64,000 bases of DNA from Naegleria gruberi (GCA_000004985.1 GG738930.1), one strand, 5' to 3'; positions 3,869 through 54,024 are shown, counted from the first letter of the stretch. Notes: generated by a model not told the origin, from the sequence alone. Made by a program: numbers and translations.

Positions 3869-3918
3869 NNNNNNNNNNNNNNNNNNNNNNNNNNNNNNNN
3901 NNNNNNNNNNNNNNNNNN
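3869..3918. other. assembly gap (50 N)
   Basis: Run of N in intergenic space downstream of the RNB gene. Confidence 0.95.
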
Positions 3919-19421: not shown

Positions 19422-20303
19422 CTAATTTGTAATCAAATCGTACAAAATGAAACCTCCAGAAATTGCCAAAGAGGTAGCAATACTAATCTTCCATCCTCTG
19501 AAAAATCCAGAAATTCCTTCTTCCTTATAAGTTTTTTGGAAACAATCCAAAGTTCCAGAAAAAGTTTTTTCCTTCTTGTCAGCTTGAACTTGAAGTTTTC
19601 TTTCGACAGTTTCCAATGGATAGCAGATGAGAAAGTTGGAAAATGAAATGAGTTGGGCGATTAGGAATTTGGCCCTGATGTCGTTTGGATATGGATTGAC
19701 ACTTGTCAAAATGTCATACATGACAAAATAGGAAAATCTGTATACGATTAATTTGATTAAGGAAGCGTCAAGACCAACAAATAGAGCAGAATAACCATTG
19801 GTTTCAATAGTCTTCTTTAAAACATCGATTGGACCTGAATATTGTCTCTTGCCAATTGTGTCAAATGCCAATTTAAATCTGACATAGGCTAATGGTCTTG
19901 TAAGAGCTTCCATGGCAGTTCCTATCAAAGCTCCACCAACTACATTTCTCAAATAGTACTTTCCCAAGTCAGTGCTTGGATCAAATTTTGGGATTATATT
20001 GAAAATCTTCATTAACATTGGAGAAAACATGCCAGTCAAGATATTTTTCAATAATTCAACAGGAAATCCTCTGAACCAACTGGAAATTCCTTGATCTTGT
20101 TTAATTTGTTGCAGGATTGTAATGGTATTCAACTGTTTATCACCAATTTGCTTGGCCAATTGATGATCGGCTTGGTGAGATTGAAGAATGCATGCGGCTG
20201 TGAAAAGAGGACAAATTGGCAATTTAACAAGTAGACTGGACGAAACCTTTGCTACAATACCGACGGTCACCTGTACGAGTGGGCTGTTGTTGCTTGTTTG
20301 CAT
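19422..20303 (-). CDS. mitochondrial carrier family protein (ADP/ATP-carrier-like)
   Basis: 293 aa with ATG at 20303. Threefold ~100-aa repeat structure with six hydrophobic helices. The C-terminal motif FSGTLDCFQKTYKEEGISGFFRGW resembles the AAC signature. Confidence 0.7.
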   Translation of the reverse strand: MQTSNNSPLVQVTVGIVAKVSSSLLVKLPICPLFTAACILQSHQADHQLAKQIGDKQLNTITILQQIKQDQGISSWFRGFPVELLKNILTGMFSPMLMKIFNIIPKFDPSTDLGKYYLRNVVGGALIGTAMEALTRPLAYVRFKLAFDTIGKRQYSGPIDVLKKTIETNGYSALFVGLDASLIKLIVYRFSYFVMYDILTSVNPYPNDIRAKFLIAQLISFSNFLICYPLETVERKLQVQADKKEKTFSGTLDCFQKTYKEEGISGFFRGWKISIATSLAISGGFILYDLITN

Positions 20304-20322
20304 TTTTTTGTTTTGACCGACG

Positions 20323-21733
20323 ATGAAAAAAATACCTCAACAAGACCATCCTCCGGATACGGAAGGGAGTAATTTGCTTGCTGACAGGATTTTTGTGTTA
20401 GAGAGAGCAATTAAAACCTACCAAAAGGAAAACAATAATCTCCGTGACTATCTTCAACAACTTGTAAATATATGTAATGGTCACCCGTTATTGAATAATA
20501 ATAATAATAATCCCATCAAACCTGTAAATAATAATCTGATCAATACCCAACCATCAGAAAATGAAAATCTATTTATTACTAGAAATCCAGTAAATGTTAG
20601 AAATCTACCAACTAGTAGAAATTTAATTAATGGTGGAAATTTCTTGACTGAGACAGTTCAAATATGCGATAGTAATCCTAAAAATAGAACTGTCAGTTAT
20701 GCTGATATTACAAGATTAGCTCCTATTAAAGCTCAGCCATCTATTAAGAAAACAATAGCAAAACAAAAATCAACAACTAATAAGATGAAAAGAAATATGG
20801 CAACTAATACTAGACCTAACAAACGTAAATCTAATTACAATCTTAATCAAATAATTAATGTAATTTGCTACAAAGATGTTACTAACGAATTTGTTGAACA
20901 AATTACAGACCTACTCGGTGACTCTGTAATCATTAGAGTTAATCGATACTGTAATAATATTATTAATGTAATTTGCCCTGATGAAACCAGTTATAAAGAG
21001 TGTTTCAATCAATTAGTGCAAGGAAGTCATGGAGGAAAATTCATATTAGAATGCTTTCCATCTCCAGCAATCTTTAATCCTAAACCTTTAGCACTTTCAC
21101 ATACTACTTCCAGTAAAACTACTCACCTTAAAATGCTAGAAAATATTATTAGCAAATATATATTGGAAGATAATATTTCTGTTGAGGAACTCTACACTAA
21201 CTATTCTCATAACCAATTTATAATTAGAATATCATTTGAGGATCAAACTATTTGCTCTCAAATGGCACAAAATCTTGGTTTAAATCAATATAAAACTATT
21301 GAACAGATTAGAAATGAAACCAAGGAGACAACATCTCAATGCTCTATTCCAATTAATTATACTAATGATGAAATTAAAAAAGGAATTATCCAAGCATTTA
21401 CCAGAATTAATAAGACTCTCCAAGAAAACAATCTTACCATTACTGATACAACTAACCGCTCTGGAACAACTAAATACAAATTAATTAAAATTGTACACAA
21501 TGATATGGATGAAATGAATGAATTTTGCAAGAAATCTATCTCCCTAAAGGATAAACAAAGAAATCATAGTGGAAATGGATTTAAATTTAAGCCATCTATT
21601 CAAATATTGGATTCTAAAATCCAAAGGAAAAGTAAATTACACCCATATCTTCCTCAATTAGAGTTATCACCTATTGATAAACTCGTATTTATTGATGAAC
21701 CAATTAGACAACTACCAACTACTACTATTGTTA

Positions 21734-21738
<5 letters not shown>
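20323..21738 (+). CDS. LINE ORF1 protein (coiled-coil nucleic-acid chaperone-like)
   Basis: 471-aa ORF beginning 20 nt inside the element. The N-terminal heptad region is LLADRIFVLERAIKTYQKENNNLRDYLQQLV. Confidence 0.6.
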
Positions 21739-21770
<32 letters not shown>

Positions 21771-21772
21771 TC
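21736..21772. repeat. (AAT)n microsatellite, ~12 units
   Basis: Directly visible trinucleotide run at the ORF1/ORF2 junction of the LINE; it encodes a poly-Asn tract. Confidence 0.9.
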
Positions 21773-22020
21773 ACAAATGCAAATAATAGAATTGATAAAA
21801 TTGAAAAAAGTATTATAGATTTAACTCAACAGCTCATGCTCACTAATAACAATATTAATAATATAGTTGAAATACTTAAACAAGCAAATATTATTAGACC
21901 TAATAATGATAACAAAATGTTAAATAATCCTAATAATAAGATGTTAGAGGATTCTAATAATAGTAATAATAATATGTTAGATGATGAATTAAGTTCATCA
22001 TCTAATCCATCTACTCTACC

Positions 22021-25000
22021 TTGAGTAGAACCACAACAAGTTTAAGGCTAGCGTGCTATAACGTAAATGGTTTATATAAGCACGCAAGCCATAAATCAGT
22101 TACTCCTGAATTGAAATCCATGTGTTTAACACATGGAATTCACTTTATGAGTTTAACTGAAACTCACTTAAATACCCCAGAACTAGAAATAGAAGTCAAA
22201 AACTCTGGATCAGGGTACCTATTATTTAACTCATTAATGAATACAAGAAAAGGTTGCAAAGGTACTGCAGCTATGCACTTTCTAAATAATTATAGAAAGC
22301 GCAATATTACAAATAATAATCTCGTACCTGGAACATTACAATGGACACGATTCGAAAGTCGTGGAATTCCAATTAACATCTTCACAATTTATCTTAGTGG
22401 AAGATAATGATTATGACAATGAGGAAGAAGCTCTTAATAGCTTTATTAATGCTGCCCTCACAATTAAAGATGAACATATTATTTTAAGTGGTGATATTAA
22501 TATTGATACAAGAAATCCCACTAGTAAAAGAGAAAAAGACTGGCTATGGATACTTAATCTACTCAGACTAACCGAATTACAAACATCCAATAATACTTGG
22601 ATAAGAAGAGTTCAATCTAATATTTTTGAATCGAAACCTGATCATGTCTTTGTGTCAAAAGACATAAGAATAGTTAAAGAAGTGCTCATGCCTCCATTAA
22701 CCACTAATGATCACATTCCTTTCTATATAGATCTCGAATTTAAATCTAACTTAACCTGGAGACCTTACTTTAGTAAGAGTAAGAGAAAGAAAATATATGA
22801 AGAAATTAATAAGTCTCCTATAGATAATTTCAAAGAGTTAAATCAAGCTATCTTGACTCAAATTAACAAATATGGCTCCAAAACTGATAGATTAGGTGTT
22901 GGTCGAATCTCAACAGCCTATAAAGAAGAAATTCAAGATTTGGAAGAAGAAATTCTTCACAAATTAAATAATGAAACTATTTCTCAATCAGAAATATCTG
23001 AATTACAAACATTACTGAAAGAAACTCATATTAAAAATGGAAAACATATTAAGGAAAAATTGATAGAAGAATTCAATGATAGAACTTCATCTAAAATGTA
23101 TCAATTTGATAGAATGGTTCATTCCAAAGAAATTAAATGGAAAGATATTAATTTCGAAGAAGAGGAAATTTTAGAATACTTTACAAATAAGTTTACCTCG
23201 ACTAATCAACTTCCAACATTCATTCCAAGTAGATCAACTATTAAAGAAGGACCAAATTGGACCAACTCGATCCATATAGAAGAATTGGAAAAAGCTTTAA
23301 AACGTATGAAATCAAATACCCCTGGTCCTGATCTAATTTCTCTGGATATTATTAAGCATCTCACAGAAAAAAATCAGAAAATTTTATTGAACGAATTTAA
23401 TAATTGCCTAAGAATAGGTGATATCTCTGAAGATTGGAAGCAAGGATGGGTGAAACTCATTCCTAAAAGAGATATCACTTCTCTCAGTGACATTCGTCCA
23501 ATCACTATTTTACCTACATTTTATAGAATTTTATTTAATATTATAGCCTTTCGACTTAGATCTTGGGCATCATCTCATATAAATATGAGACAACAAGCAT
23601 TTATTACAGACAGAAACACTTTAAATCATGGTGTCCTTCTATCATCATTAGCTATGAAAACTAAGAAAAGAACCTTCATTCTTGTTAACCTAGATATTGA
23701 AGGAGCTTATGATGCTGTAGAATTGTCAGTGATTAAAATGGCACTAGACCATTGTAAATTTCCTAACGAACTCACTCAATTTATTATTAATGCCTATAGC
23801 AACCATGAATTGAGCCTAGAAATTGATAATCATCTATCCACAAAATTTACAAAAACTCGAGGAATCCCACAAGGATGCCCATTGGCTCCTCTTATATACG
23901 ATTGTATCACACAATTAATTATTGATAAAGCAATAGATAAATGGAAAATACCAATCAAACCAAACAAACTATGTGCTAATGATATTGCACTCTGTTGCTT
24001 TGCAGATGATATGAATGTTGTCTGTGACAGATATGCCAAATACAATGACAGGCTAGATAACATACATGACTGGCTAGGTCAACTACTTTTTAAACTAAAT
24101 GCAAAGAAATCAGTTGCAACTCTACTACCTAAAACAAGCAAAGTATCTCCCAAAATTAAGGGTACACCTATTCCTAAACAAAAAAACCTTAGGATACTTG
24201 GACATTATCCATGGGATGATATTCTGGTTCGACAAGATATCCAAAACAAAATTGAAAAATTTACCAAATCTTTGAAATTTCTCCCATTATTCAAAATTGA
24301 ACCAGATAACCTTAAACAAATTATTCACGCTAAAGCTATTAGCTTATTTACACACCTTTCTAAAATTAACTTAATTCCTCTGAAAAAGGCACAACAAATT
24401 GATATAGCCATTAGAGGAGCAATTAGAAGAAAACTATATATGGACAGGAAAACACCAACCAGCTTATTCCACTTACCATTAGAAAAAGGTGGATTAGGAC
24501 TACCATCTATTGTAGAATTTTCTGAAAGAATGAACCTAAGAACCATGACCTTAATTGCTAACAGTAACAATTTACTCGTCAAGAAAGCTTTCAAACATGG
24601 TATCAAGCACTGTGAGGAAACGAAAGACAATATTTATTCGAAATGGCTACTAGTACTAAAAGAATACAACCTCACACTTAAGAAAAATGAAATGAAATTC
24701 AAGTTGAAAAAAATCAAAACAGGAAATAATTTTGATATTCACACTGACGGATCAAGACTCGAATCAAAGACTGGAATGGGGATTAATATCTATGATTGCT
24801 CCAATATGAACACTCCAGTTAGATCTTTATCCCTCCATATTAATGATCAATATTCAAATAATGTAGCTGAAATATGCTCTATTATTACAGCAGCTAAAGT
24901 TATCCCAAGAGACTCCAAGATTAAAATCCATACTGATAGTAATGTGGCAATTGAAGTTCTCAAAGAACGATATAAGGGAAACTTTCTACCACTAAAAAAA

Positions 25001-25705
25001 GCCTTCTTTAAAACCATTAAGGATAGAAAACTTGAATATGAATTCAAGAAAGTTGAAGCTCATAAGGATAAGGAAAATATCAAAGTTGATTTATTGGCAA
25101 AGAATGCAACTCTGAAACCTAAAATCTTTGATATCCGTAAACTACTCTTTAATCAATATATCCTCACAAAGAACGATATTATAATCTTTGACTATAAGAG
25201 GTTAACTACCTCACAACATTTAAGGCTAATGCTTGACAAGATAGAGAGTCACCCCAATCACATACCTAACCTAGATTGGAACTCTATCAACGTCAGCTAC
25301 CTTAAATCCCATTTGTCTCCTAAATCTAAATATTATATTTGGAGAAACTCTTCAAATGCCCACATCAATTTTGGTGAGGGTAAAAGTTTCTGTCATGATT
25401 GTAACACAGAATCTGACCTTAATCACTATATTCATGAATGCCCTGCTCTGGATAGTGCCAGATACTTTTGCTTGTCAAAAATATCTGATATTCTTGATCA
25501 GAGAGAGTGTAAACTCACTCATATTCAATTCAGACCAGAAAAGCATCACCATGTACTCTTCTTCCACCATTCTGGAACCACATTCTTCGAAGATGGATAC
25601 GTACAACAATACCCAGACATTGCAGAGAAATGGCCTGAGATCCAGGGAGCCATTTCTAACTTTGTCGGCCGCTCCTATAGATATTATTATATTGACTCAA
25701 TGTAA
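22021..25705 (+). CDS. LINE ORF2 polyprotein (APE endonuclease-RT-RNaseH), interrupted by a +1 frame change near 22361-22407
   Basis: The APE domain begins in frame 1 (22021-22407) and continues in frame 2 (22361 onward, SGDINIDTRNP). The frame-1 ORF begins at TTG, not ATG. An (AAT)n-rich frame-2 ORF at 21674-22024 overlaps the ORF1/ORF2 junction. Confidence 0.65.
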
Positions 25706-25756
25706 ATTTACAAATTCAAAGAGAATCTGAATAGATTCGTTATTATTGCAATAAAA

Positions 25757-26456
25757 GATTTTTTTGTTTTGATCGTCCCTCAAAAAAATACCTCAACGTC
25801 TAGTACGTTTGTGCGGTTTTCTAGATTGACCAAGATGCAAGTAGCACAGCGCTAAACTATCGCCGTAACTTTCGGCATCGAGGTTTAGATGGATTCAAAC
25901 TATGTATTGTTTATTCTTGTCTGTAGAATAACATATAGCTATCTTCTGTCAAAGATTTAAAGCAGGTTTCTTTAGTTTAGCACGGGCAAAACAATGTAAA
26001 GATACCGAGGCGTGGAGAGTAATGATTTAATTATGAACAGAAAGGAAATTTTATAAGAATATAATCAAAGAGAATAGATATTGTAGAACGTTACGTAAGA
26101 ATTTTATTGCAGCGTAAGAGATGGTATTGGATCACCTTCTCGATATCCTTGACAGATATTTCAGATGCTTCCCCATTTAATTTTCTATTATTTCGCGATG
26201 TTTACTTTCCCTATGGTTTCCATTAGTCACGGTCTAACTCTTGATTAGTTTCCAACTATGCAACTTAAAGGCTAGGCGATAACTCCACTCCTAAAAGTCC
26301 CCGTCCAATGACGAAGCTGTGAATGAACTTTGTTCCTACGATACACACTCCAAAAGTACACCATCACAAGAGTGTTTGGTCGAGAATCTGAATAGATTCG
26401 AAAAATTGTAGTGTATAATAATCGGTATTATAAATTTTTTTGTTTTGATTGGTTTT
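25757..26456 (+). mobile_element. ~0.7-kb derivative of the same LINE: shared 5' head and 3' tail flanking an unrelated, GC-richer non-coding interior (non-autonomous or internally replaced copy)
   Basis: 5' ATTTTTTTGTTTTGATCG...AAAAAAATACCTCAAC matches 20304-20340. 3' GAGAATCTGAATAGATTCG ... ATTTTTTTGTTTTGA at 26380-26456 matches 25718-25773. The interior 25800-26378 has no long ORF. Confidence 0.55.
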
Positions 26457-26567: not shown

Positions 26568-26726
26568 GTAAGCAAATAAAACGATGCAACAAAGTTTCCA
26601 ATTTAGCATTTGACCTCTAGAAAATATTTAGAATTCTAGTAGTAAAAATTAATGCATAAAATAATTGATGACATAGGTATCTGCCTACTTCGTTAATGTT
26701 TTACATTTTTTTTCCAATATCGTGAA

Positions 26727-26807
26727 GCAGGGGTTCCCGAGTGGTCAAAGGGGGTAGACTCAAGTTCTACTGCGCAAGCTTCGTGGGTTCAAATCCCACC
26801 TTCTGCA
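26727..26807 (+). tRNA. tRNA-Leu (anticodon CAA)
   Basis: Cloverleaf read by hand. Acceptor stem GCAGGGG/CTTCTGC with two G-U pairs. Anticodon stem GTAGA/TCTAC with loop CTCAAGT. Long variable arm typical of Leu. T arm GTGGG-TTCAAAT-CCCAC. Confidence 0.8.
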
Positions 26808-28480: not shown

Positions 28481-28554
28481 TGCCTCCCTTGGGAATCGAA
28501 CCCAAGACCTCTGTCTTACTAGGACAGCGCTACTGCCAACTGAGCTAGGAAGGC
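28481..28554 (-). tRNA. tRNA-Thr (anticodon AGT)
   Basis: Reverse complement gives acceptor GCCTTCC/GGGAGGC, D arm GCTC..., anticodon stem CTGTC/GACAG with loop CTAGTAA (anticodon AGT), and T arm TTGGG-TTCGATT-CCCAA. Confidence 0.8.
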
Positions 28555-29933: not shown

Positions 29934-29983
29934 NNNNNNNNNNNNNNNNNNNNNNNNNNNNNNNNNNNNNNNNNNNNNNNNNN
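29934..29983. other. assembly gap (50 N placeholder)
   Basis: It separates the truncated hydrolase gene from the truncated cyclase paralogue; both are incomplete at this junction. Confidence 0.95.
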
Positions 29984-37260: not shown

Positions 37261-37333
37261 TGGGGACTGTGAGGATCGAACTCACGACCTTAGGATTATG
37301 AGACCTACGCGCTACCGACTGCGCCAAGTCCCC
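37261..37333 (-). tRNA. tRNA-Met (anticodon CAT; elongator-like)
   Basis: Reverse complement gives acceptor GGGGACT/AGTCCCC, D stem GCGC/GCGC, anticodon loop CTCATAA, and T arm GTGAG-TTCGATC-CTCAC. Confidence 0.8.
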
Positions 37334-37599: not shown

Positions 37600-40539
37600 A
37601 TGCCCACCAATACAATAGCCACTTCTGCTACTCCCTCAACAAACAACTCGACTGCTGCATACTCAGCAACAACAACAAATTCCAACTCCAATTTTTTACT
37701 TCGACCCTCTTCGAGAGAACCACGAGTTATACGAAAAGCTCCAACTCCTCAGCCTTATCAATCGAAAAAGTCTGCTATCGGTCCAACTAGTGNNNNNNNN
37801 NNNNNNNNNNNNNNNNNNNNNNNNNNNNNNNNNNNNNNNNNNNNNNNNNNNNNNNNNNNNNNNNNNNNNNNNNNNNNNNNNNNNNNNNNNNNNNNNNNNN
37901 NNNNNNNNNNNNNNNNNNNNNNNNNNNNNNNNNNNNNNNNNNNNNNNNNNNNNNNNNNNNNNNNNNNNNNNNNNNNNNNNNNNNNNNNNNNNNNNNNNNN
38001 NNNNNNNNNNNNNNNNNNNNNNNNNNNNNNNNNNNNNNNNNNNNAACGAGAAGCAAAACCTCCTGGAAATTCTGAGGTTCCTCCTCTCAAGAAGAAATCT
38101 TCATCAATAACAACCACTCTAACTTCATCACCTAAGGCTGCCTCTGGAGGAGAGAAAAAAAAGGCTTCTAATCTATCTCCCTCGCCAGTAAGAAAGAGAG
38201 GTTACGAATTGGCCACCAAGTCAAGCTCGAGTTCTTCCCTATTGAAGAATGAAGAAGGAAGTGCTGCCAAGCCATCTCAATTGAGAAAATCAGGATCGTT
38301 TACAGGGCAGAATGTCATTTCTAATAATACAAAGAAGGAAGCAAATAATGGAAAAAAGTTGGCAAGACCAAAGGGATCTGCTTTTCAAAAGAAGCGTCCT
38401 CTTGATGATAAATCTGTTTCATACAAGCTGTTGGAAGAAATTGTCAATTCAACCATTACTCAGTTTATTAAGCAAGATGGAATTTTAAGTCATAGAGACT
38501 TACGCTTAATTATTAATAAGAAGATTGCCCTCGTCAAGTCAATCCATGACAATATTATTGGATCTGAAGCTGTATTTAGAACACCATTTGGGTCGAAAAA
38601 GTATTTACCAATCACGTATTGTGATTACATTGCAACGGGGAAACCATTGAAAATGATTGAGGATTACATTTTGGAACAAGTTTTACCAACCTATGCCAAC
38701 ACTCATAATACAACATCTTTCACAGGTTATCAAACAACACACTTGATAGAAGATGCAAGACAAATAATTGCTCAATGTGTGAATGCCAATTTGAAAAAAC
38801 CAGAAGTTGCAAGTTCAACCTGTACAGTGAGTGGGGAGTGTGCTTCACAGGAATCCAACAACACTCAGAAGGAAGACGATGAAGATGTTATTATCTTTGC
38901 TGGAAGTGGTAGTGCAGCATGTATCAATACACTCATTCACTACATTGGAATCAGACAGAAAGTGAGAGAGGCACCAAGTGAAAAGGAGCTCCCTGTTGTC
39001 ATTATCTCAACACTGGAACACCACAGTAATATTCTTGCTTGGAGAGAAACTGGAGCTTGTGTGATTCAAATTATGGAAGATAAGTACGGTAATGTCGACC
39101 TGGATGAACTACTAATTCACCTCAAACAATTCAAAGACAGTGGAAGAATGCTAATTGTCTCAATGACTGCAGCTTCAAATGTAACTGGTGTTGTGACTGA
39201 TACTGAAGCTATTGCCAAGTTGGCTCACGAAAATAATGCTTGGTGCTTTTTTGACTATGCTGGAGGTGCTCCATATTTGGATATTAATGTCAATCCAAAG
39301 AATGATCCTCTTCTTGCTAAGGATGCAGTCTTTATATCCCCACACAAATTTATTGGTGGTCCAAGCACTCCTGGTGTTTTGATTGCCAAGAAGAAACTCT
39401 TTTCAAATACAGTGCCAAGTCAACCTGGTGGTGGTACAGTGACCTACAATCACAGTTATACTCCAGTTGTTGAAGAAAAGGAGGAAGGAGGCACATCAAA
39501 TATTATTGGAAGCATTCGGTGTGCTCTGGTATTCAAGTTGAAGGATGAAGTTGGACCAAAATTGATTCAGAGAATTGAGGAAAAGTATAGAGATAGAGCT
39601 TTAAAGACGTGGTCAACAAATCCCAATCTTGTAATGGTTGGTCCTGGATTGGACTGTATTGGGGAGGGAAAGGTTGAAAAACTTGCCTTCTTCTCCTTTT
39701 TGGTCAAACATGAAGACTACTTTTTGCATCCATCCTATGTGAGTTTGTTGTTGAATGATCTGTTTGGACTGCAGAGCCGTCCCGGATGTTCTTGTGCTGG
39801 TCCTTACGGGGCTGAAATATTGGGCATTCAAATGACCAAGTTAAATCTTATTGAAGCTGCCATTGTTGAATCTATCAAGTCGTCCAATAGCTTGACTTGT
39901 TTGAAGCCAGGTTGGAGTAGACTCAATTTGAACTACTTTTTCGATGATAATACTGTTCAATTTGTTTTACAGGCTGTGGACTTTGTTGCAACTCATGGCT
40001 GGAAATTATTGCCTTACTATGTTTTTGATTCAAAAACCAATGAATGGAGTCATAGAAGATTTGGAAATAATTCACCTATGCGTTTGTCAGGATATTTTGA
40101 TAACTTTACCAAATACACAGAGGAAAATAGAAAGAAACTGACAGAGGTTTCATTTTCAAATGGCTTCTTGGAGTTTGTAGATAAGAATGGAGAACTTCAC
40201 AACACCGAGCCAACCACACCATTATCATACAGTAATATTTTGAAAGAAGCAGAGTCTGTATTGAGAGAATCAACAAATAACTTTAATGCACTCTACATTA
40301 ACATTGAATCTGAACTTAATAATATTTTTGGTGATGAGGAGCTCGGATTAAGACATAGATATGGTAATTTGCGATGGTTCATGCTTCCTTCTGAAGCTTT
40401 AATGGACATGAAAGGTATTGAACGTGAGAAACATACAGATCCTGTGATTGTTCCAAAAGTTTACCCATCCTCAGATAGTTATATCAAGCAAAAAAAGATT
40501 GAATCAAGAACATTCCTCAAATCAAGGTTAAATAAATAA
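37600..40539 (+). CDS. class-V aminotransferase-fold PLP-dependent enzyme (cysteine desulfurase/selenocysteine-lyase-like) with Ser/Thr-rich N-terminal extension; spans a 252-N gap
   Basis: ATG at 37600. Motifs VIIFAGSGSAACI, VVIISTLEHHSNILAW and ISPHKFIGGPSTPGVL (PLP-lysine context). The gap 37793-38044 lies inside the low-complexity N-terminal part. Confidence 0.65.
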   Translation: MPTNTIATSATPSTNNSTAAYSATTTNSNSNFLLRPSSREPRVIRKAPTPQPYQSKKSAIGPTSXXXXXXXXXXXXXXXXXXXXXXXXXXXXXXXXXXXXXXXXXXXXXXXXXXXXXXXXXXXXXXXXXXXXXXXXXXXXXXXXXXXXXREAKPPGNSEVPPLKKKSSSITTTLTSSPKAASGGEKKKASNLSPSPVRKRGYELATKSSSSSSLLKNEEGSAAKPSQLRKSGSFTGQNVISNNTKKEANNGKKLARPKGSAFQKKRPLDDKSVSYKLLEEIVNSTITQFIKQDGILSHRDLRLIINKKIALVKSIHDNIIGSEAVFRTPFGSKKYLPITYCDYIATGKPLKMIEDYILEQVLPTYANTHNTTSFTGYQTTHLIEDARQIIAQCVNANLKKPEVASSTCTVSGECASQESNNTQKEDDEDVIIFAGSGSAACINTLIHYIGIRQKVREAPSEKELPVVIISTLEHHSNILAWRETGACVIQIMEDKYGNVDLDELLIHLKQFKDSGRMLIVSMTAASNVTGVVTDTEAIAKLAHENNAWCFFDYAGGAPYLDINVNPKNDPLLAKDAVFISPHKFIGGPSTPGVLIAKKKLFSNTVPSQPGGGTVTYNHSYTPVVEEKEEGGTSNIIGSIRCALVFKLKDEVGPKLIQRIEEKYRDRALKTWSTNPNLVMVGPGLDCIGEGKVEKLAFFSFLVKHEDYFLHPSYVSLLLNDLFGLQSRPGCSCAGPYGAEILGIQMTKLNLIEAAIVESIKSSNSLTCLKPGWSRLNLNYFFDDNTVQFVLQAVDFVATHGWKLLPYYVFDSKTNEWSHRRFGNNSPMRLSGYFDNFTKYTEENRKKLTEVSFSNGFLEFVDKNGELHNTEPTTPLSYSNILKEAESVLRESTNNFNALYINIESELNNIFGDEELGLRHRYGNLRWFMLPSEALMDMKGIEREKHTDPVIVPKVYPSSDSYIKQKKIESRTFLKSRLNK

Positions 40540-42389: not shown

Positions 42390-44872
42390 TTATTCCAAAA
42401 TGTTGAGAGTTGGTGTTTGAGCTTGTTGTTCACATAATCGAAGTAAATGTTGGGTTGGAAGGTCATTTGGGTTGACTTGTTGATATTCTCGAAATAGAGG
42501 AATGGCTTCTTCAAATTTACCTTCAAACAGAAGAGAGCAACCTTGGTTGTAAACTCCCCATTTTAAATATCTTTCCTTCTTATTGAAATGTGAATGTAAA
42601 TCTTTGGTCGAGTTAAGTAAATGAGTAGAGATTGGAAACTTACCATCATCAGTTTCTTGTTTCATTTCAATTGAATCTCCCAATTCATATAATAAACAAT
42701 CTTTTGTCAATGAATTTGACATAGAAACACTTCCAATTTCCCAATTTTCTTGGTTGAAATCATCTAGAGAGGAAAAGAAATAATCCTCCCTTAATTCTCT
42801 TCTATCCAGGAATCTAGTCTCACACCTAGTGTGGCAATATTGCTTGATGTGCTGTGTGATAATGATTGGAACTTTGAGTTTCTTGCCAAATCTTATTATT
42901 TGATCCAAATTATGTCTCGTGCTTGAAAAAATTGTAAAGTGCTTAATGTCTTTAGTTCCAATATTTCCACAAAATGTTTTTTGAGCACAAATAGCAAATC
43001 TGAAATTAATCAATTCACAAATTTCCTCCCTCAATAGTCCACTTTCTCTCCACTTGTTTTCTTTCACGTTGGTTAACTTTTCTTGTAAAAGTTGAGCGCT
43101 GGCAACTGCTTTTTCTTCGTGATTGTTCTGGTTAATAGTAGTATTATAAGCAATAGTTAAAATATCATTCTCAAAGTTGACCAAATGGCCAGATGTAGTC
43201 CTAATCACTGTGTCCACTTGGCTAAATAAATCTCCCAACAATGAAACTAGATGAGTTGGGTTTCCTTCTAAGGATAACAACCATTCATTCAATCCTTCAA
43301 TGTACATTTGATTGATACTAATCTTTCTTGGTTCCAAATAGAGAGAAAATTTGCATTTCAATTTAGATGATTTTTTCTTACTGTCCAAAATATTAGATAA
43401 TTTTGAAGCTTTCCCTCCTTCAAGTGAATTATCTTCAATGCTTGAAAATGGTTGACTTTTTTCCAATTCAACAGAATCTGAAGTCATTGTTCTAGGTGAA
43501 AAGGAATCCAACGAAAGTCTAGTTGCAGTTTCTTGTTCTCCATTTNNNNNNNNNNNNNNNNNNNNNNNNNNNNNNNNNNNNNNNNNNNNNNNNNNNNNNN
43601 NNNNNNNNNNNNNNNNNNNNNNNNNNNNNNNNNNNNNNNNNNNNNNNNNNNNNNNNNNNNNNNNNNNNNNNNNNNNNNNNNNNNNNNNNNNNNNNNNNNN
43701 NNNNNNNNNNNNNNNNNNNNNNNNNNNNNNNNNNNNNNNNNNNNNNNNNNNNNNNNNNNNNNNNNNNNNNNNNNNNNNNNNNNNNNNNNNNNNNNNNNNN
43801 NNNNNNNNNNNNNNNNNNNNNNNNNNNNNNNNNNNNNNNNNNNNNNNNNNNNNNNNNNNNNNNNNNNNNNNNNNNNNNNNNNNNNNNNNNNNNNNNNNNN
43901 NNNNNNNNNNNNNNNNNNNNNNNNNNNNNNNNNNNNNNNNNNNNNNNNNNNNNNNNNNNNNNNNNNNNNNNNNNNNNNNNNNNNNNNNNNNNNNNNNNNN
44001 NNNNNNNNNNNNNNNNNNNNNNNNNNNNNNNNNNNNNNNNNNNNNNNNNNNNNNNNNNNNNNNNNNNNNNNNNNNNNNNNNNNNNNNNNNNNNNNNNNNN
44101 NNNNNNNNNNNNNNNNNNNNNNNNNNNNNNNNNNNNNNNNNNNNNNNNNNNNNNNNNNNNNNNNNNNNNNNNNNNNNNNNNNNNNNNNNNNNNNNNNNNN
44201 NNNNNNNNNNNNNNNNNNNNNNNNNNNNNNNNNNNNNNNNNNNNNNNNNNNNNNNNNNNNNNNNNNNNNNNNNNNNNNNNNNNNNNNNNNNNNNNNNNNN
44301 NNNNNNNNNNNNNNNNNNNNNNNNNNNNNNNNNNNNNNNNNNNNNNNNNNNNNNNNNNNNNNNNNNNNNNNNNNNNNNNNNNNNNNNNNNNNNNNNNNNN
44401 NNNNNNNNNNNNNNNNNNNNNNNNNNNNNNNNNNNNNNNNNNNNNNNNNNNNNNNNNNNNNNNNNNNNNNNNNNNNNNNNNNNNNNNNNNNNNNNNNNNN
44501 NNNNNNNNNNNNNNNNNNNNNNNNNNNNNNNNNNNNNNNNNNNNNNNNNNNNNNNNNNNNNNNNNNNNNNNNNNNNNNNNNNNNNNNNNNNNNNNNNNNN
44601 NNNNNNNNNNNNNNNNNNNNNNNNATAACAAACACACTCATTAATGTCAAACTCGAAATTACTATAAGCATACAATTTCTTATAGAAATTTGGCAATTGC
44701 TCGCCGATAAGAAGAAGACGGAAGAGTTTGTATCCGAATTATTGTATTTTCTATTCCAATCATTGTCTTCATAACTAAATCTCCCATTAGAATAAATATC
44801 ATGTTGAGGTAAATCAAAGGCAAGAGGTAAAACCTTACGAGAGGACGTTGATGATCGCCTTGTGAGTGGCAT
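42390..44872 (-). CDS. cyclase-homology-domain protein with degenerate catalytic residues plus C-terminal TPR-like region; interrupted by a 1079-N gap
   Basis: The C-terminal part (42390-43545) aligns to a class III cyclase domain (HLVSLLGDLFSQVDTVIRTTSGHLVNFENDILTIAY; FRFAICAQKTFCGNIG; FTIFSSTRHNLDQI) but lacks the first metal-binding Asp and the N/R transition-state residues. A TPR-like helix pair follows. The N-terminal fragment is at 44625-44872. Confidence 0.5.
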
Positions 44873-48687: not shown

Positions 48688-49877
48688 NNNNNNNNNNNNN
48701 NNNNNNNNNNNNNNNNNNNNNNNNNNNNNNNNNNNNNNNNNNNNNNNNNNNNNNNNNNNNNNNNNNNNNNNNNNNNNNNNNNNNNNNNNNNNNNNNNNNN
48801 NNNNNNNNNNNNNNNNNNNNNNNNNNNNNNNNNNNNNNNNNNNNNNNNNNNNNNNNNNNNNNNNNNNNNNNNNNNNNNNNNNNNNNNNNNNNNNNNNNNN
48901 NNNNNNNNNNNNNNNNNNNNNNNNNNNNNNNNNNNNNNNNNNNNNNNNNNNNNNNNNNNNNNNNNNNNNNNNNNNNNNNNNNNNNNNNNNNNNNNNNNNN
49001 NNNNNNNNNNNNNNNNNNNNNNNNNNNNNNNNNNNNNNNNNNNNNNNNNNNNNNNNNNNNNNNNNNNNNNNNNNNNNNNNNNNNNNNNNNNNNNNNNNNN
49101 NNNNNNNNNNNNNNNNNNNNNNNNNNNNNNNNNNNNNNNNNNNNNNNNNNNNNNNNNNNNNNNNNNNNNNNNNNNNNNNNNNNNNNNNNNNNNNNNNNNN
49201 NNNNNNNNNNNNNNNNNNNNNNNNNNNNNNNNNNNNNNNNNNNNNNNNNNNNNNNNNNNNNNNNNNNNNNNNNNNNNNNNNNNNNNNNNNNNNNNNNNNN
49301 NNNNNNNNNNNNNNNNNNNNNNNNNNNNNNNNNNNNNNNNNNNNNNNNNNNNNNNNNNNNNNNNNNNNNNNNNNNNNNNNNNNNNNNNNNNNNNNNNNNN
49401 NNNNNNNNNNNNNNNNNNNNNNNNNNNNNNNNNNNNNNNNNNNNNNNNNNNNNNNNNNNNNNNNNNNNNNNNNNNNNNNNNNNNNNNNNNNNNNNNNNNN
49501 NNNNNNNNNNNNNNNNNNNNNNNNNNNNNNNNNNNNNNNNNNNNNNNNNNNNNNNNNNNNNNNNNNNNNNNNNNNNNNNNNNNNNNNNNNNNNNNNNNNN
49601 NNNNNNNNNNNNNNNNNNNNNNNNNNNNNNNNNNNNNNNNNNNNNNNNNNNNNNNNNNNNNNNNNNNNNNNNNNNNNNNNNNNNNNNNNNNNNNNNNNNN
49701 NNNNNNNNNNNNNNNNNNNNNNNNNNNNNNNNNNNNNNNNNNNNNNNNNNNNNNNNNNNNNNNNNNNNNNNNNNNNNNNNNNNNNNNNNNNNNNNNNNNN
49801 NNNNNNNNNNNNNNNNNNNNNNNNNNNNNNNNNNNNNNNNNNNNNNNNNNNNNNNNNNNNNNNNNNNNNNNNNNNNN
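48688..49877. other. assembly gap (1190 N)
   Basis: It hides the 5' end of the cyclase gene at 45117-48687 and the 3' two-thirds of its upstream paralogue. Confidence 0.95.
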
Positions 49878-52782: not shown

Positions 52783-54024
52783 CGAGGGGTTTTTTTCTTA
52801 GCTTTTTTCAACTACAAGTATCTTATATTTTGGCGGGAGTATAATGTCGCTTTTAGAGACGGCATCGCACATTTGAGACCTTAATCAATGAATTGTGCTC
52901 TCCAATTTAAAAATTTCCCTTTGCATCTTAATAAGCTGAGAATGATCGGTTTTGTCCTTCTGCCGAGATTCTAAACCCGCTTATGTTCAGATTTCAATTG
53001 AAGGGAGAAGATATGATATTCCAATGGTAATGTGGGCGTATTATTGTGTGTTCATTATTCATTGTATTTTACAATTATTACTGCTCTAAAGAGAGAGATT
53101 ATCATTCCGTAACAATTGTTTTGTGCTTGCGAGATCGTATTAAATATTAATTATTTTTGTTACTGTAATTTATACGTCTTGTTTTGGATTAATCTCTACA
53201 GGTTCTTTGCTGAGAACATTTGTGTTGTTCTTTTAATTATTATTATTAATATATTTCCTAATCGTCTGATGAAGAAGAATACATGTTGTTGTTTTTGTTT
53301 TGAATANNNNNNNNNNNNNNNNNNNNNNNNNNNNNNNNNNNNNNNNNNNNNNNNNNNNNNNNNNNNNNNNNNNNNNNNNNNNNNNNNNNNNNNNNNNNNN
53401 NNNNNNNNNNNNNNNNNNNNNNNNNNNNNNNNNNNNNNNNNNNNNNNNNNNNNNNNNNNNNNNNNNNNNNNNNNNNNNNNNNNNNNNNNNNNNNNNNNNN
53501 NNNNNNNNNNNNNNNNNNNNNNNNNNNNNNNNNNNNNNNNNNNNNNNNNNNNNNNNNNNNNNNNNNNNNNNNNNNNNNNNNNNNNNNNNNNNNNNNNNNN
53601 NNNNNNNNNNNNNNNNNNNNNNNNNNNNNNNNNNNNNNNNNNNNNNNNNNNNNNNNNNNNNNNNNNNNNNNNNNNNNNNNNNNNNNNNNNNNNNNNNNNN
53701 NNNNNNNNNNNNNNNNNNNNNNNNNNNNNNNNNNNNNNNNNNNNNNNNNNNNNNNNNNNNNNNNNNNNNNNNNNNNNNNNNNNNNNNNNNNNNNNNNNNN
53801 NNNNNNNNNNNNNNNNNNNNNNNNNNNNNNNNNNNNNNNNNNNNNNNNNNNNNNNNNNNNNNNNNNNNNNNNNNNNNNNNNNNNNNNNNNNNNNNNNNNN
53901 NNNNNNNNNNNNNNNNNNNNATAGATGCGAAGGATTGTTTGGATTCTCCAAATTGATGAAAATGTTTTGGAATTTTTCATAACTTAGTGCAAGGAATTGT
54001 TTCAATTACATAGACAAAAAAAAG

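What the first reader, a model, noticed from the sequence alone, without database searches (positions are those of the whole stretch)
20304..25773. Apparently intact LINE with APE, RT and RNase H, and a +1 frame change inside the endonuclease domain
The element has an ORF1, and an ORF2 encoding an apurinic-endonuclease-type nuclease, RT (FADD), RNase H-like residues and a terminal Cys/His finger. This resembles an I/Tad/L1-like clade more than a restriction-enzyme-like-endonuclease LINE. The APE domain is split between frames at about 22361-22407. That is either a programmed +1 frameshift, an inactivating indel or a base-calling error in a homopolymer-rich stretch. Everything else is open, which suggests recent activity.
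Basis: seen in the sequence. Interest (0 to 1): 0.5.

Follow-up and report, generated by a model that had tools for sequence, protein, structure and literature searches.

The report
Young, frame-broken LINE in Naegleria gruberi

Summary
The element is real. It is a 5.4-kb non-LTR retrotransposon of Naegleria gruberi NEG-M, mis-annotated there as the chimeric gene NAEGRDRAFT_60001. It carries ORF1 and an ORF2 with an APE-type nuclease, RT (FADD), RNase H and a CX2CX7HX4C motif.

The frame change lies exactly at 22405. Against a sister family (L005, 77% nt identity, intact 1228-aa ORF2), the only indel in ORF2 is a 2-nt gap: AGA T-- AAT versus AGA TCA GAT. Three relatives with uninterrupted ORF2 frames read straight through. 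dN/dS is low on both sides (0.06 and 0.11). This fits a recent inactivating deletion or a consensus error, not a conserved programmed frameshift.

"Everything else is open" is wrong. ORF1 is also frame-broken at its (AAT)12 run near 21736.

The missing ORF2 ATG is not a lesion. The ORF1 stop overlaps the ORF2 start as [A/T]TGA in five relatives.

The copy is flanked by a 14-bp duplication, TTTTTTTGTTTTGA. A third copy of that duplication follows a 662-bp non-coding element with LINE-like ends.

Relatives in N. lovaniensis and N. fowleri have 15–16-bp duplications that also start with T7–9G. Two of the three insertion sites abut a host gene's ATG.

The clade is unresolved. Interest is low to moderate.

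The parts
20303..20316 (+). Target-site duplication, copy 1 (TTTTTTTGTTTTGA). Its first T is the complement of the A of the ATG of the minus-strand mitochondrial-carrier gene (19422-20303).
   Evidence: Exact 14-mer found three times in the window, 0.7 expected even with 1 mismatch. Carrier gene confirmed by Pfam Mito_carr, E 2e-34.
20317..25758 (+). Body of the LINE (5.44 kb). The 5' UTR is only about 6 nt and there is no poly(A) tail.
   Evidence: The 5' end CCGACGATGAAAAAAAT resembles the 5' ends of unit 2, L001 and L013. The 3' end ...AATAAAAGA matches L005.
20323..21738 (+). ORF1, main part (471 codons, frame 1), ending at the first TAA of the (AAT)n run.
   Evidence: ORF list. 28% identical over 450 aa to the ORF1 of related contig L001, E 4e-45.
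21733..21772 (+). ORF1 frame break (AAA TAA TAA...) at the start of an (AAT)12 microsatellite. The exact indel position is not pinned: both frames are open across 21659-21735.
   Evidence: Three-frame translation and repeat families D1/D4.
21737..22024 (+). ORF1 C-terminal segment, now in the +1 frame (N-rich linker plus a probable coiled coil), ending at the TGA homologous to the ORF1 stop of relatives.
   Evidence: Aligns with the C-termini of L001 and L005 ORF1 and ends at the same CYT TGA GT. An open frame of about 123 codons in 26% GC DNA is my estimate P ~2e-5 from local base composition.
22021..22024 (+). ORF1 stop / ORF2 start overlap, TTGA (TTG of ORF2 overlapping TGA of ORF1).
   Evidence: The same overlap is TTGA in L001 and L005, and ATGA in L003 and L012.
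22021..22404 (+). ORF2 N-terminal 128 codons (frame 1): first half of the APE-type nuclease (CYNVNG at 22054-22071, LTETH at 22153-22167).
   Evidence: 87% aa identity to L005 with dN/dS 0.063.
22402..22408 (+). Frame-change site AGA T AAT. This is a 2-nt deletion in the Ser codon that follows the conserved YLSGR.
   Evidence: Global alignment with L005 shows its only ORF2 indel here: window GGAAGAT--AATGAT versus GGCAGATCAGATGAT. L001 and L003 are continuous at this point.
22406..25705 (+). Rest of ORF2 (frame 2, 1099 codons plus stop). It holds the second half of the nuclease (GDINID, KPDHVF, NDHIPF), the RT, RNase H and the Cys/His motif.
   Evidence: dN/dS 0.108 against L005.
23459..24205 (+). 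Reverse transcriptase domain (FADD at 23999-24010).
   Evidence: Pfam RVT_1, E 4e-28, residues 367-615 of the 1114-aa ORF.
24734..25108 (+). RNase H domain.
   Evidence: Pfam RNase_H, E 4e-11. Motifs HTDGS, AEICSI, HTDSNV, VDLLAK.
25391..25441 (+). C-terminal CX2CX7HX4C motif (CHDCNTESDLNHYIHEC).
   Evidence: The same spacing occurs in P0001, P0004, P0005, P0008 and P0177.
25721..25739 (+). Conserved 3'-UTR motif GAGAATCTGAATAGATTCG (6-bp stem, GAAU loop), followed by AATAAA at 25750-25755.
   Evidence: 19/19 identical in the window LINE, unit 2, L001 and L005, while the surrounding UTR differs. The fold is not energetically exceptional, z about 0.
25759..25772 (+). Target-site duplication, copy 2.
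25773..26434 (+). Unit 2: a 662-bp non-coding element with LINE-like ends. Its 5' end is TCGTCCCTCAAAAAAATACCTCAAC. Its 3' end is the 19-nt motif (26382-26400) plus an A-rich end. It is a probable non-autonomous partner inserted at the same site.
   Evidence: Only the termini match the LINE. No ORF, no protein similarity, no Rfam family.
26435..26448 (+). Target-site duplication, copy 3, followed by the original upstream region of the carrier gene.

Best explanation
The region is a young, full-length but frame-broken copy of a LINE family restricted, as far as I can see, to heterolobosean amoebae. The host is Naegleria gruberi NEG-M.

The element inserted by target-primed reverse transcription at the A-run that forms the leader just in front of the ATG of a mitochondrial-carrier gene. 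This made a 14-15-bp duplication, TTTTTTTGTTTTGA. The regenerated site was hit a second time by a 662-bp non-coding element with the same kind of 5' and 3' ends.

The family is bicistronic. The ORF1 stop overlaps the ORF2 start as [A/U]UGA, which suggests termination-reinitiation. ORF2 encodes nuclease, RT, RNase H and CCHC.

This copy lost 2 nt from the Ser codon after YLSGR in the nuclease. It also carries a second +1 frame break at the (AAT)12 run in ORF1. It therefore probably cannot make either full-length protein, while the family itself has been active very recently.

Inferred, not shown:
- The nuclease nicks the bottom strand at the 3' end of an A7-9 run.
- That A-run primer pairs with the U-run just downstream of the element's AAUAAA in a read-through transcript.
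- This would explain the T-run at every 3' junction and the absence of poly(A) tails.
For: Identity:
- Pfam RVT_1, RNase_H and (on the joined sequence) Exo_endo_phos_2.
- Best relatives are Naegleria and Willaertia proteins.
- Gene model XP_002669196 reproduces the window's ORF1 and even the out-of-frame stretch upstream of the shift.

Frame change:
- The only ORF2 indel against L005 is the 2-nt gap at 22405.
- L001, L003 and L005 have uninterrupted ORF2 frames in their DNA.
- dN/dS is 0.063 upstream and 0.108 downstream of the shift.

ORF1 break:
- The frame-2 segment aligns with the ORF1 C-termini of L001 and L005 and ends at the homologous TGA.

ORF2 start:
- The overlap is TTGA in the window, L001 and L005, and ATGA in L003 and L012.

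Duplications and target:
- Three exact copies in the window.
- L012: TTTTTTTGTTCTATT on both sides.
- L013: TTTTTTTTTGATATTA on both sides, again abutting a minus-strand ATG.
- T7-9 at the 3' junction of L001, L005 and L002.

Recent activity:
- Fragments 100% identical over 391 and 158 aa, plus an ORF1 fragment identical apart from its last residues, on 7-8-kb scaffolds.
Against: - No other copy of the same family, and no reads, could be examined. Whether the two frame breaks are private to this copy, shared by the family, or errors of the draft consensus is therefore untested.
- Both breaks read ARA TAA T (AAA TAA T and AGA TAA T) and both are +1. A simple two-random-indels view treats this as coincidence.
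- No premature stop from a base substitution is seen in about 1,800 codons. If the lesions are real, the copy must be very young.
- The small scaffolds with identical fragments could be allelic or assembly duplicates rather than separate insertions.
- The priming model is inference only.
Confidence: 0.62

Rival explanations
1. The frame changes are errors of the draft assembly's consensus, with repeat copies collapsed or mixed. On this view the real copy has intact ORF1 and ORF2 and is an active master element.
For: - The window is a draft scaffold with six N gaps.
- Apart from the two 1-2-nt frame breaks, there is not one premature stop codon in about 1,800 codons.
- The flanking duplications are perfect.
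- Other scaffolds carry fragments identical at the protein level, so reads from several copies could have been merged.
- One break lies at a microsatellite boundary.
Against: - The ORF2 site is not a homopolymer or a repeat.
- Two independent errors in 5.4 kb would be many for a consensus.
- Frame-broken copies clearly exist in this lineage. The N. fowleri copy L013 has its ORF2 in three frames.
Confidence: 0.28
2. The two +1 changes are decoded by programmed +1 ribosomal frameshifting at ARA-UAA-U, so this copy makes full-length ORF1p and ORF2p.
For: - Both breaks are +1, and both can be read as A(A/G)A UAA U with a 0-frame stop at the shift.
- The coding sequence on both sides of the ORF2 break is under strong constraint in family comparisons.
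- From memory: a stop codon at the shift site is typical of known +1 sites such as RF2, antizyme and Euplotes AAA-UAA.
Against: - The shift is absent from every relative examined. L005 has TCA where the window has T, and L001 and L003 are continuous.
- The ORF1 shift position is not pinned. Both frames are open for 77 nt.
- D/N-rich codons (GAT, AAT) give TGA/TAA in the neighbouring frame, so a stop right after any indel here is expected.
- No stimulatory element was looked for or found.
Confidence: 0.05
3. The repeated T7GT4GA and the 662-bp unit are parts of one larger element, either terminal repeats or a modular 3' UTR as in Dictyostelium TRE5-A. On this view they are not target duplications flanking two separate insertions.
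For: - The 40-nt repeat 20302-20341 / 25758-25797 extends beyond the 14-mer into element sequence.
- From memory: TRE5-A repeats a module at both ends.
Against: - In L005 the sequence after the T-run (GTAAAGTTAC...) differs from unit 2.
- L012 and L013 have flanking repeats of the same length and the same T-run+G start, but otherwise different sequence. This is expected of target DNA.
- Joining the outer flanks restores an ordinary A-run leader in front of the carrier gene's ATG.
Confidence: 0.05
4. The element targets tRNA genes, in the manner of Dictyostelium TRE5 or yeast Ty1/Ty3. It lies 278 bp upstream of tRNA-Leu(CAA).
For: tRNA-Leu lies at 26727-26807 on the same strand. With 3 tRNA genes in 64 kb, such proximity is about a 3% event by chance (my estimate).
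Against: No tRNA gene was found in the flanks of related insertions L002, L004, L005, L012 and L013. The distance is not the fixed short distance of known tRNA-targeting elements.
Confidence: 0.04

Closest known systems
L1 (LINE-1) type elements
   Same: - Two ORFs.
- ORF2 with an N-terminal APE-type nuclease, an RT and a C-terminal CCHC-like motif.
- Target duplications of about 15 bp starting in a homopolymer run.
- 5' truncation in relatives (L012).
- From memory: ORF2 translated without dependence on its own AUG.
   Different: - Has an RNase H.
- Has no poly(A) tail.
- The duplication starts with a T-run in the element's sense orientation, so the primer strand would end in A's rather than T's.
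- ORF1 has no Transposase_22 hit.
- Human ORF2p is only a weak RT-level match, E 1e-14, no better than R2.
I factor / Tad1 / Ingi-type LINEs (RNase H-bearing APE LINEs)
   Same: Domain order APE-RT-RNase H, followed by a Cys/His motif. This comparison is by architecture, and the architecture of those clades is from memory.
   Different: - No CCHC knuckles in ORF1.
- No (TAA)n or poly(A) 3' end.
- No RT phylogeny could be made here, so membership is untested.
Trypanosomatid ingi/RIME and L1Tc/NARTc pairs
   Same: - The host belongs to the same supergroup (Discoba).
- An autonomous APE-RT-RNase H element is paired with a short non-coding element that shares its termini (from memory), as the LINE and unit 2 do here.
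   Different: - Those elements have a single ORF, poly(A) tails and a C2H2 motif (from memory).
- Unit 2 shares only about 26 nt at the 5' end and about 55 nt at the 3' end.
- Its copy number is unknown.
SART1 UAAUG stop-start coupling (Kojima et al. 2005, from memory)
   Same: The ORF1 stop codon and the ORF2 start codon overlap, suggesting termination-reinitiation.
   Different: Here the overlap is AUGA or UUGA. In three of five elements the overlapping start is UUG, not AUG. No translation data exist.
Dictyostelium TRE5-A
   Same: A LINE in a compact protist genome, inserted in a short intergenic region near a tRNA gene, with sequence shared between its two ends.
   Different: Relatives show no tRNA association. 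The shared end sequences here are a target duplication plus a second element.

Membership tests
Non-LTR retrotransposon (LINE), APE-type | Reverse transcriptase of the non-LTR type | tested here: met
   Pfam RVT_1, E 4e-28. PDB matches are R2 and L1 ORF2 proteins. FADD at 23999-24010.
Non-LTR retrotransposon (LINE), APE-type | Endonuclease/exonuclease/phosphatase-fold nuclease N-terminal to the RT | tested here: met
   On the frame-joined sequence: Exo_endo_phos_2 at 28.1 bits (cut-off 27.4), and Exo_endo_phos over the full profile length at 19.2 bits, below its cut-off. Motifs N-x-N-G, E-T-H, GDxN, PDH and NDH are present.
Non-LTR retrotransposon (LINE), APE-type | No terminal repeats of its own; flanked by target-site duplications of variable sequence; 5'-truncated copies occur | tested here: met
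   14-16-bp duplications of differing sequence in the window, L012 and L013. L012 is 5'-truncated inside ORF1.
Restriction-enzyme-like-endonuclease LINEs (R2, NeSL and similar) | Nuclease C-terminal to the RT and no N-terminal APE domain | tested here: not met
   An APE domain is at the N-terminus. The region after the RT is RNase H plus CCHC.
I / Tad1 / Ingi / LOA-type clades | RNase H domain downstream of the RT | tested here: met
   Pfam RNase_H, E 4e-11.
I / Tad1 / Ingi / LOA-type clades | Placement inside the clade in an RT-domain phylogeny with reference elements | not testable with these tools
   No labelled reference set was available. Outside Heterolobosea identity is at most about 30%, and the nearest outsiders have mixed architectures: APE+RNase H, APE only, or C2H2 R2-like.
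L1 clade | Poly(A) 3' end and an L1-type ORF1 (Transposase_22) | tested here: not met
   The 3' end is AATAAAAGA followed by the target T-run. ORF1 has no Transposase_22 hit. The AlphaFold model of ORF1 was unusable, pLDDT 35.
Programmed +1 ribosomal frameshift site | The frame change is conserved among functional relatives | tested here: not met
   L005, L001 and L003 have one continuous ORF2 through this point. The window lacks 2 nt of a TCA codon.
Programmed +1 ribosomal frameshift site | The frame change is shared by other copies of the same family and is supported by reads | not testable with these tools
   N. gruberi scaffolds could not be fetched. Exact look-ups of the window's ORFs and of repaired versions found nothing.
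tRNA-gene-targeting retroelements (TRE5, Ty3 and similar) | Insertions at a fixed short distance from tRNA genes in most copies | tested here: not met
   In the window the distance is 278 bp. No tRNA gene occurs in the flanks of L002, L004, L005, L012 or L013.
Non-autonomous LINE partner (SINE-like), for unit 2 | Shares the 3' end of its LINE and has its own target duplication | tested here: met
   The 19-nt motif and A-rich end are shared, and unit 2 is bounded by duplication copies 2 and 3.
Non-autonomous LINE partner (SINE-like), for unit 2 | Multiple dispersed copies; a small-RNA-derived head | tested here: inconclusive
   There is no second copy in the window or the fetched loci, and no Rfam match. 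The rest of the genome was not available.

The most novel reading that the evidence does not exclude
Both frame breaks (AAA UAA U in ORF1, AGA UAA U in ORF2) are bypassed by +1 frameshifting at a stop codon, so the copy is a functional master element. Naegleria would then have a retrotransposon that uses stop-codon-dependent +1 decoding twice. It would do so in addition to a UUGA stop-start overlap for ORF2 and to priming on A-run gene leaders.
Probability: 0.05. Interest if true: 0.7.

Novelty: new member of a known kind. Interest (0 to 1): 0.3.

Why it matters
N. gruberi is very poor in transposable elements: about 0.28% of the genome, according to bioRxiv 10.64898/2026.06.24.734286. I found no paper in the searched library that describes its LINEs, although curated repeat databases were not available to check.

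The points of some value are these:
- The reference annotation carries a chimeric host-gene model for this element (NAEGRDRAFT_60001).
- The lineage has a clear target preference for T7-9G. On the other strand this is the A-run leader next to start codons, which places insertions between a gene and its promoter.
- The ORF1 stop and ORF2 start overlap as [A/U]UGA across relatives, down to the most distant one examined (36% protein identity to the window).
- The family probably has a non-autonomous partner.

None of this changes how LINEs are understood. The frame change itself is best read as ordinary decay or a consensus error.

Tried and rejected
- **Other N. gruberi copies.** Look-ups of gene models P0002, P0004, P0171, P0025 and P0170 returned no contig.
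- **ORF1 protein search.** It found nothing.
- **Search with the joined nuclease domain.** It found only relatives at 51-53% identity.
- **Exact look-ups.** The window's ORFs and three repaired versions are not in the collection.
- **Metagenome scans.** The RT-profile scan found no relatives. The scan for the 19-nt 3'-UTR motif gave six unrelated chance matches.
- **Other copies in the window.** There are none.
- **Unit 2 as an internally deleted LINE, a tRNA/5S/7SL-derived SINE or a coding fragment.** Its interior has no similarity to the LINE, no Rfam hit and no protein similarity.
- **An intron bridging the frame change.** Rejected, because the codon-by-codon alignment with L005 is colinear on both sides with only 2 nt missing.
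- **A -1 frameshift fusing ORF1 to ORF2.** By inspection, the 19-nt overlap contains no slippery heptamer.
- **UPF0223 hit in ORF1 (30.5 bits).** It is not reproduced in the ORF1 of L001, L012 or L013, so I treat it as chance.
- **AlphaFold model of ORF1.** Unusable at pLDDT 35, so no fold search was run.
- **Clade assignment from the names of distant hits.** Uninformative.
- **Literature.** Searches for Naegleria LINEs gave nothing specific.

Full report
**What is there.** The window is AT-rich eukaryotic DNA (about 35% GC) with six N gaps. Between 20303 and 25772 lies a non-LTR retrotransposon.
- ORF1 runs from 20323 to 21738.
- The 1114-codon frame at 22361-25705 hits Pfam RVT_1 (E 4e-28) and RNase_H (E 4e-11).
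- That frame contains FADD, the RNase H acidic motifs and a CX2CX7HX4C motif.
- The first 128 codons of the nuclease (CYNVNG, LTETH) are in a different frame, at 22021-22404.
- When the two frames are joined, the domain hits Exo_endo_phos_2 across the junction, just above Pfam's cut-off. It also hits Exo_endo_phos over the full profile length, just below its cut-off.

The N. gruberi NEG-M gene model XP_002669196 (NAEGRDRAFT_60001, on a 158,571-bp scaffold) is a chimera of this very element. It consists of ORF1, then the out-of-frame peptide SAILQIIISYLEHYNGHDSKVVEFQLTSSQFILVE that the window gives in frame 2 upstream of the shift, then ORF2 with the RT spliced out.

Further gene-model fragments sit on scaffolds of 7.4-7.9 kb. 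Two are 100% identical to this ORF2 (391 aa and 158 aa). One matches this ORF1 apart from its last residues (164 aa). These fragments suggest several near-identical copies. Allelic or duplicated scaffolds cannot be excluded.

**The frame change in ORF2.** A sister family was recovered on an ENA contig (L005). It is 77% identical in DNA and has an uninterrupted 1228-codon ORF2.
- In a global alignment, the only indel inside ORF2 is a 2-nt gap in the window at 22405: GGA AGA T-- AAT GAT against GGC AGA TCA GAT GAT.
- Two more distant relatives with uninterrupted ORF2 frames in their DNA (L001, L003) also read YLSGR-S/K-D/E straight through.
- dN/dS against L005 is 0.063 upstream and 0.108 downstream of the shift. 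Both halves therefore evolved as coding sequence, each in its own frame.
- The site is not a homopolymer.
- The stop codon directly after the shift is expected, because GAT/AAT-rich codons read TGA/TAA in the neighbouring frame.

I conclude that this is a recent 2-nt deletion or a consensus error. It is not a conserved programmed frameshift.

ORF1 ends at a TAA that is the first unit of an (AAT)12 run. The next 95 codons are open in the +1 frame. They align with the C-terminal N-rich/coiled-coil part of ORF1 in L001 and L005. They end at the same CYT TGA GT as ORF1 does in those elements. ORF1 is therefore frame-broken as well. The exact position is not pinned, because both frames are open over 21659-21735.

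Apart from these two breaks, no premature stop occurs in about 1,800 codons. The copy is young. 'Apparently intact' is too generous.

**The missing ATG of ORF2 is not a lesion.** In the window, L001 and L005, the ORF1 stop overlaps a TTG as TTGA. The residues encoded from that TTG (LS..TSLR.ACYN) are conserved. In L003 and in the N. lovaniensis copy L012 the same overlap is ATGA. This arrangement suggests termination-reinitiation, as described for other LINEs (from memory: SART1, human L1). That reading is inference.

**Ends, duplications and a second element.**
- The 14-mer TTTTTTTGTTTTGA occurs exactly three times in the window, at 20303, 25759 and 26435.
- The first two copies bound the LINE. 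The last two bound a 662-bp non-coding unit.
- That unit's first ~26 nt resemble the LINE's 5' end. Its last ~55 nt carry the LINE's 3'-UTR motif GAGAATCTGAATAGATTCG.
- The motif is 19/19 identical in L001 and L005 as well. Its small hairpin is not energetically remarkable.
- The unit's interior matches nothing: no LINE sequence, no protein, no Rfam family.

Two complete relatives show that the repeats are target duplications and not part of the element:
- L012 (N. lovaniensis, 5'-truncated) is flanked by TTTTTTTGTTCTATT.
- L013 (N. fowleri, full-length, ORF2 in three frames) is flanked by TTTTTTTTTGATATTA.

L001, L005 and L002 also have T7-8 at the 3' junction.

In the window and in L013, the first T of the run is the complement of the A of a minus-strand gene's ATG. 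The element therefore sits head-to-head against the start codon, between the gene and its former promoter. A-run-plus-TG is common in this window: 9 of the 21 T7+ runs on the + strand are preceded by CA.

**How it probably works.**
- Shown: the domain set, the duplications, the T-run start of every duplication, the absence of poly(A), and the AATAAA 3-15 nt before the T-run.
- Inferred: the nuclease nicks the bottom strand at the 3' end of an A7-9 run. That primer pairs with the U-run of a transcript extending a few bases past the element, since AAUAAA followed by a U-rich tract looks like a polyadenylation site. Reverse transcription then starts at the element's last bases, possibly guided by the conserved 3' motif. 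The duplication recreates the target, which would explain the tandem second insertion.

**Clade.** The architecture (APE-RT-RNase H-CCHC, two ORFs, no ORF1 zinc knuckles, no poly(A)) excludes the restriction-enzyme-like group. It does not choose among the RNase H-bearing APE clades.

Only 26 of 1.8 billion representative proteins score E<=1e-30. Those whose source I looked up were mostly heterolobosean or unnamed environmental sequences. Outside Heterolobosea identity is at most about 30%, and the architectures are mixed. PDB matches favour neither R2 nor L1. A labelled RT phylogeny could not be built here.

**Other readings.**
- tRNA targeting is unlikely. The tRNA-Leu is 278 bp away, and no tRNA gene lies near five related insertions.
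- Programmed +1 frameshifting is kept only as a low-probability reading. Both breaks can be written ARA TAA T, but relatives lack them.
- Consensus error remains a serious alternative, because neither reads nor same-family copies could be reached.

**Verdict.** This is an ordinary, young, frame-broken LINE copy of a heterolobosean lineage. It comes with some neat family features: a target at A-run leaders, an [A/U]UGA ORF overlap, a conserved 3' motif and a probable non-autonomous partner. I found no description of these features in the searched literature.

Noticed in passing
window 20323-25705; protein P0171 (XP_002669196, NAEGRDRAFT_60001): The reference annotation of N. gruberi models this retrotransposon as one host gene ('RNase H type-1 domain-containing protein'). 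Predicted introns fuse ORF1 to an out-of-frame stretch and then to ORF2 with the RT removed. P0002, P0004 and P0026 look like similar partial models of a sister family.
   Followed up: partly
window, all T7+/A7+ runs (e.g. 12475, 28279, 36609, 57988, 60921; 12831, 57249): Nine of the 21 T7+ runs on the + strand are preceded by CA, and 2 of the 20 A7+ runs are followed by TG. These read as an A-run ending in ATG. This looks like a common start-codon leader in this genome and would be the natural pool of targets for this LINE. I did not check that each one is a real gene start.
   Followed up: partly
window 26727-26807 (+), 28481-28554 (-), 37261-37333 (-): Three tRNA genes are present: Leu-CAA, Thr-AGT and Met-CAT. 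The Leu gene is 278 bp from the end of the tandem insertions. A T8 run (26706-26713) lies 13 bp upstream of it.
   Followed up: partly
window 3869-3918, 29934-29983, 37793-38044, 43546-44624, 48688-49877, 53307-53920: Six runs of N (assembly gaps, 3,235 bases in all). These account for the very low GC values in the composition profile.
   Followed up: yes
L013 3372-8996 (N. fowleri VFQX01000037.1): A full-length related LINE with a perfect 16-bp duplication. Its ORF2 homology is spread over three frames and its ORF1 contains stops. The annotated genes FDP41_004384 and its neighbour are pieces of it. It abuts the ATG of a TELO2-like gene.
   Followed up: partly
L012 5198-9619 (N. lovaniensis PYSW02000053.1): A 5'-truncated related LINE lying between a guanylate cyclase gene and a mitofilin gene. 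Gene model C9374_012017 starts at an internal Met. The real ORF2 start appears to be the ATG overlapping the ORF1 TGA at about 5886.
   Followed up: partly
window 20323-21738, residues 255-336 of ORF1: A Pfam hit to the bacterial family UPF0223, above its cut-off (30.5 bits, E 5e-7). It is not reproduced in the ORF1 of three relatives, so it is probably chance.
   Followed up: yes
L002 30-110: The 5' flank of a truncated related element contains GTATAGTGGTAGTACA, which resembles a tRNA D-arm. ARAGORN calls no tRNA there.
   Followed up: no
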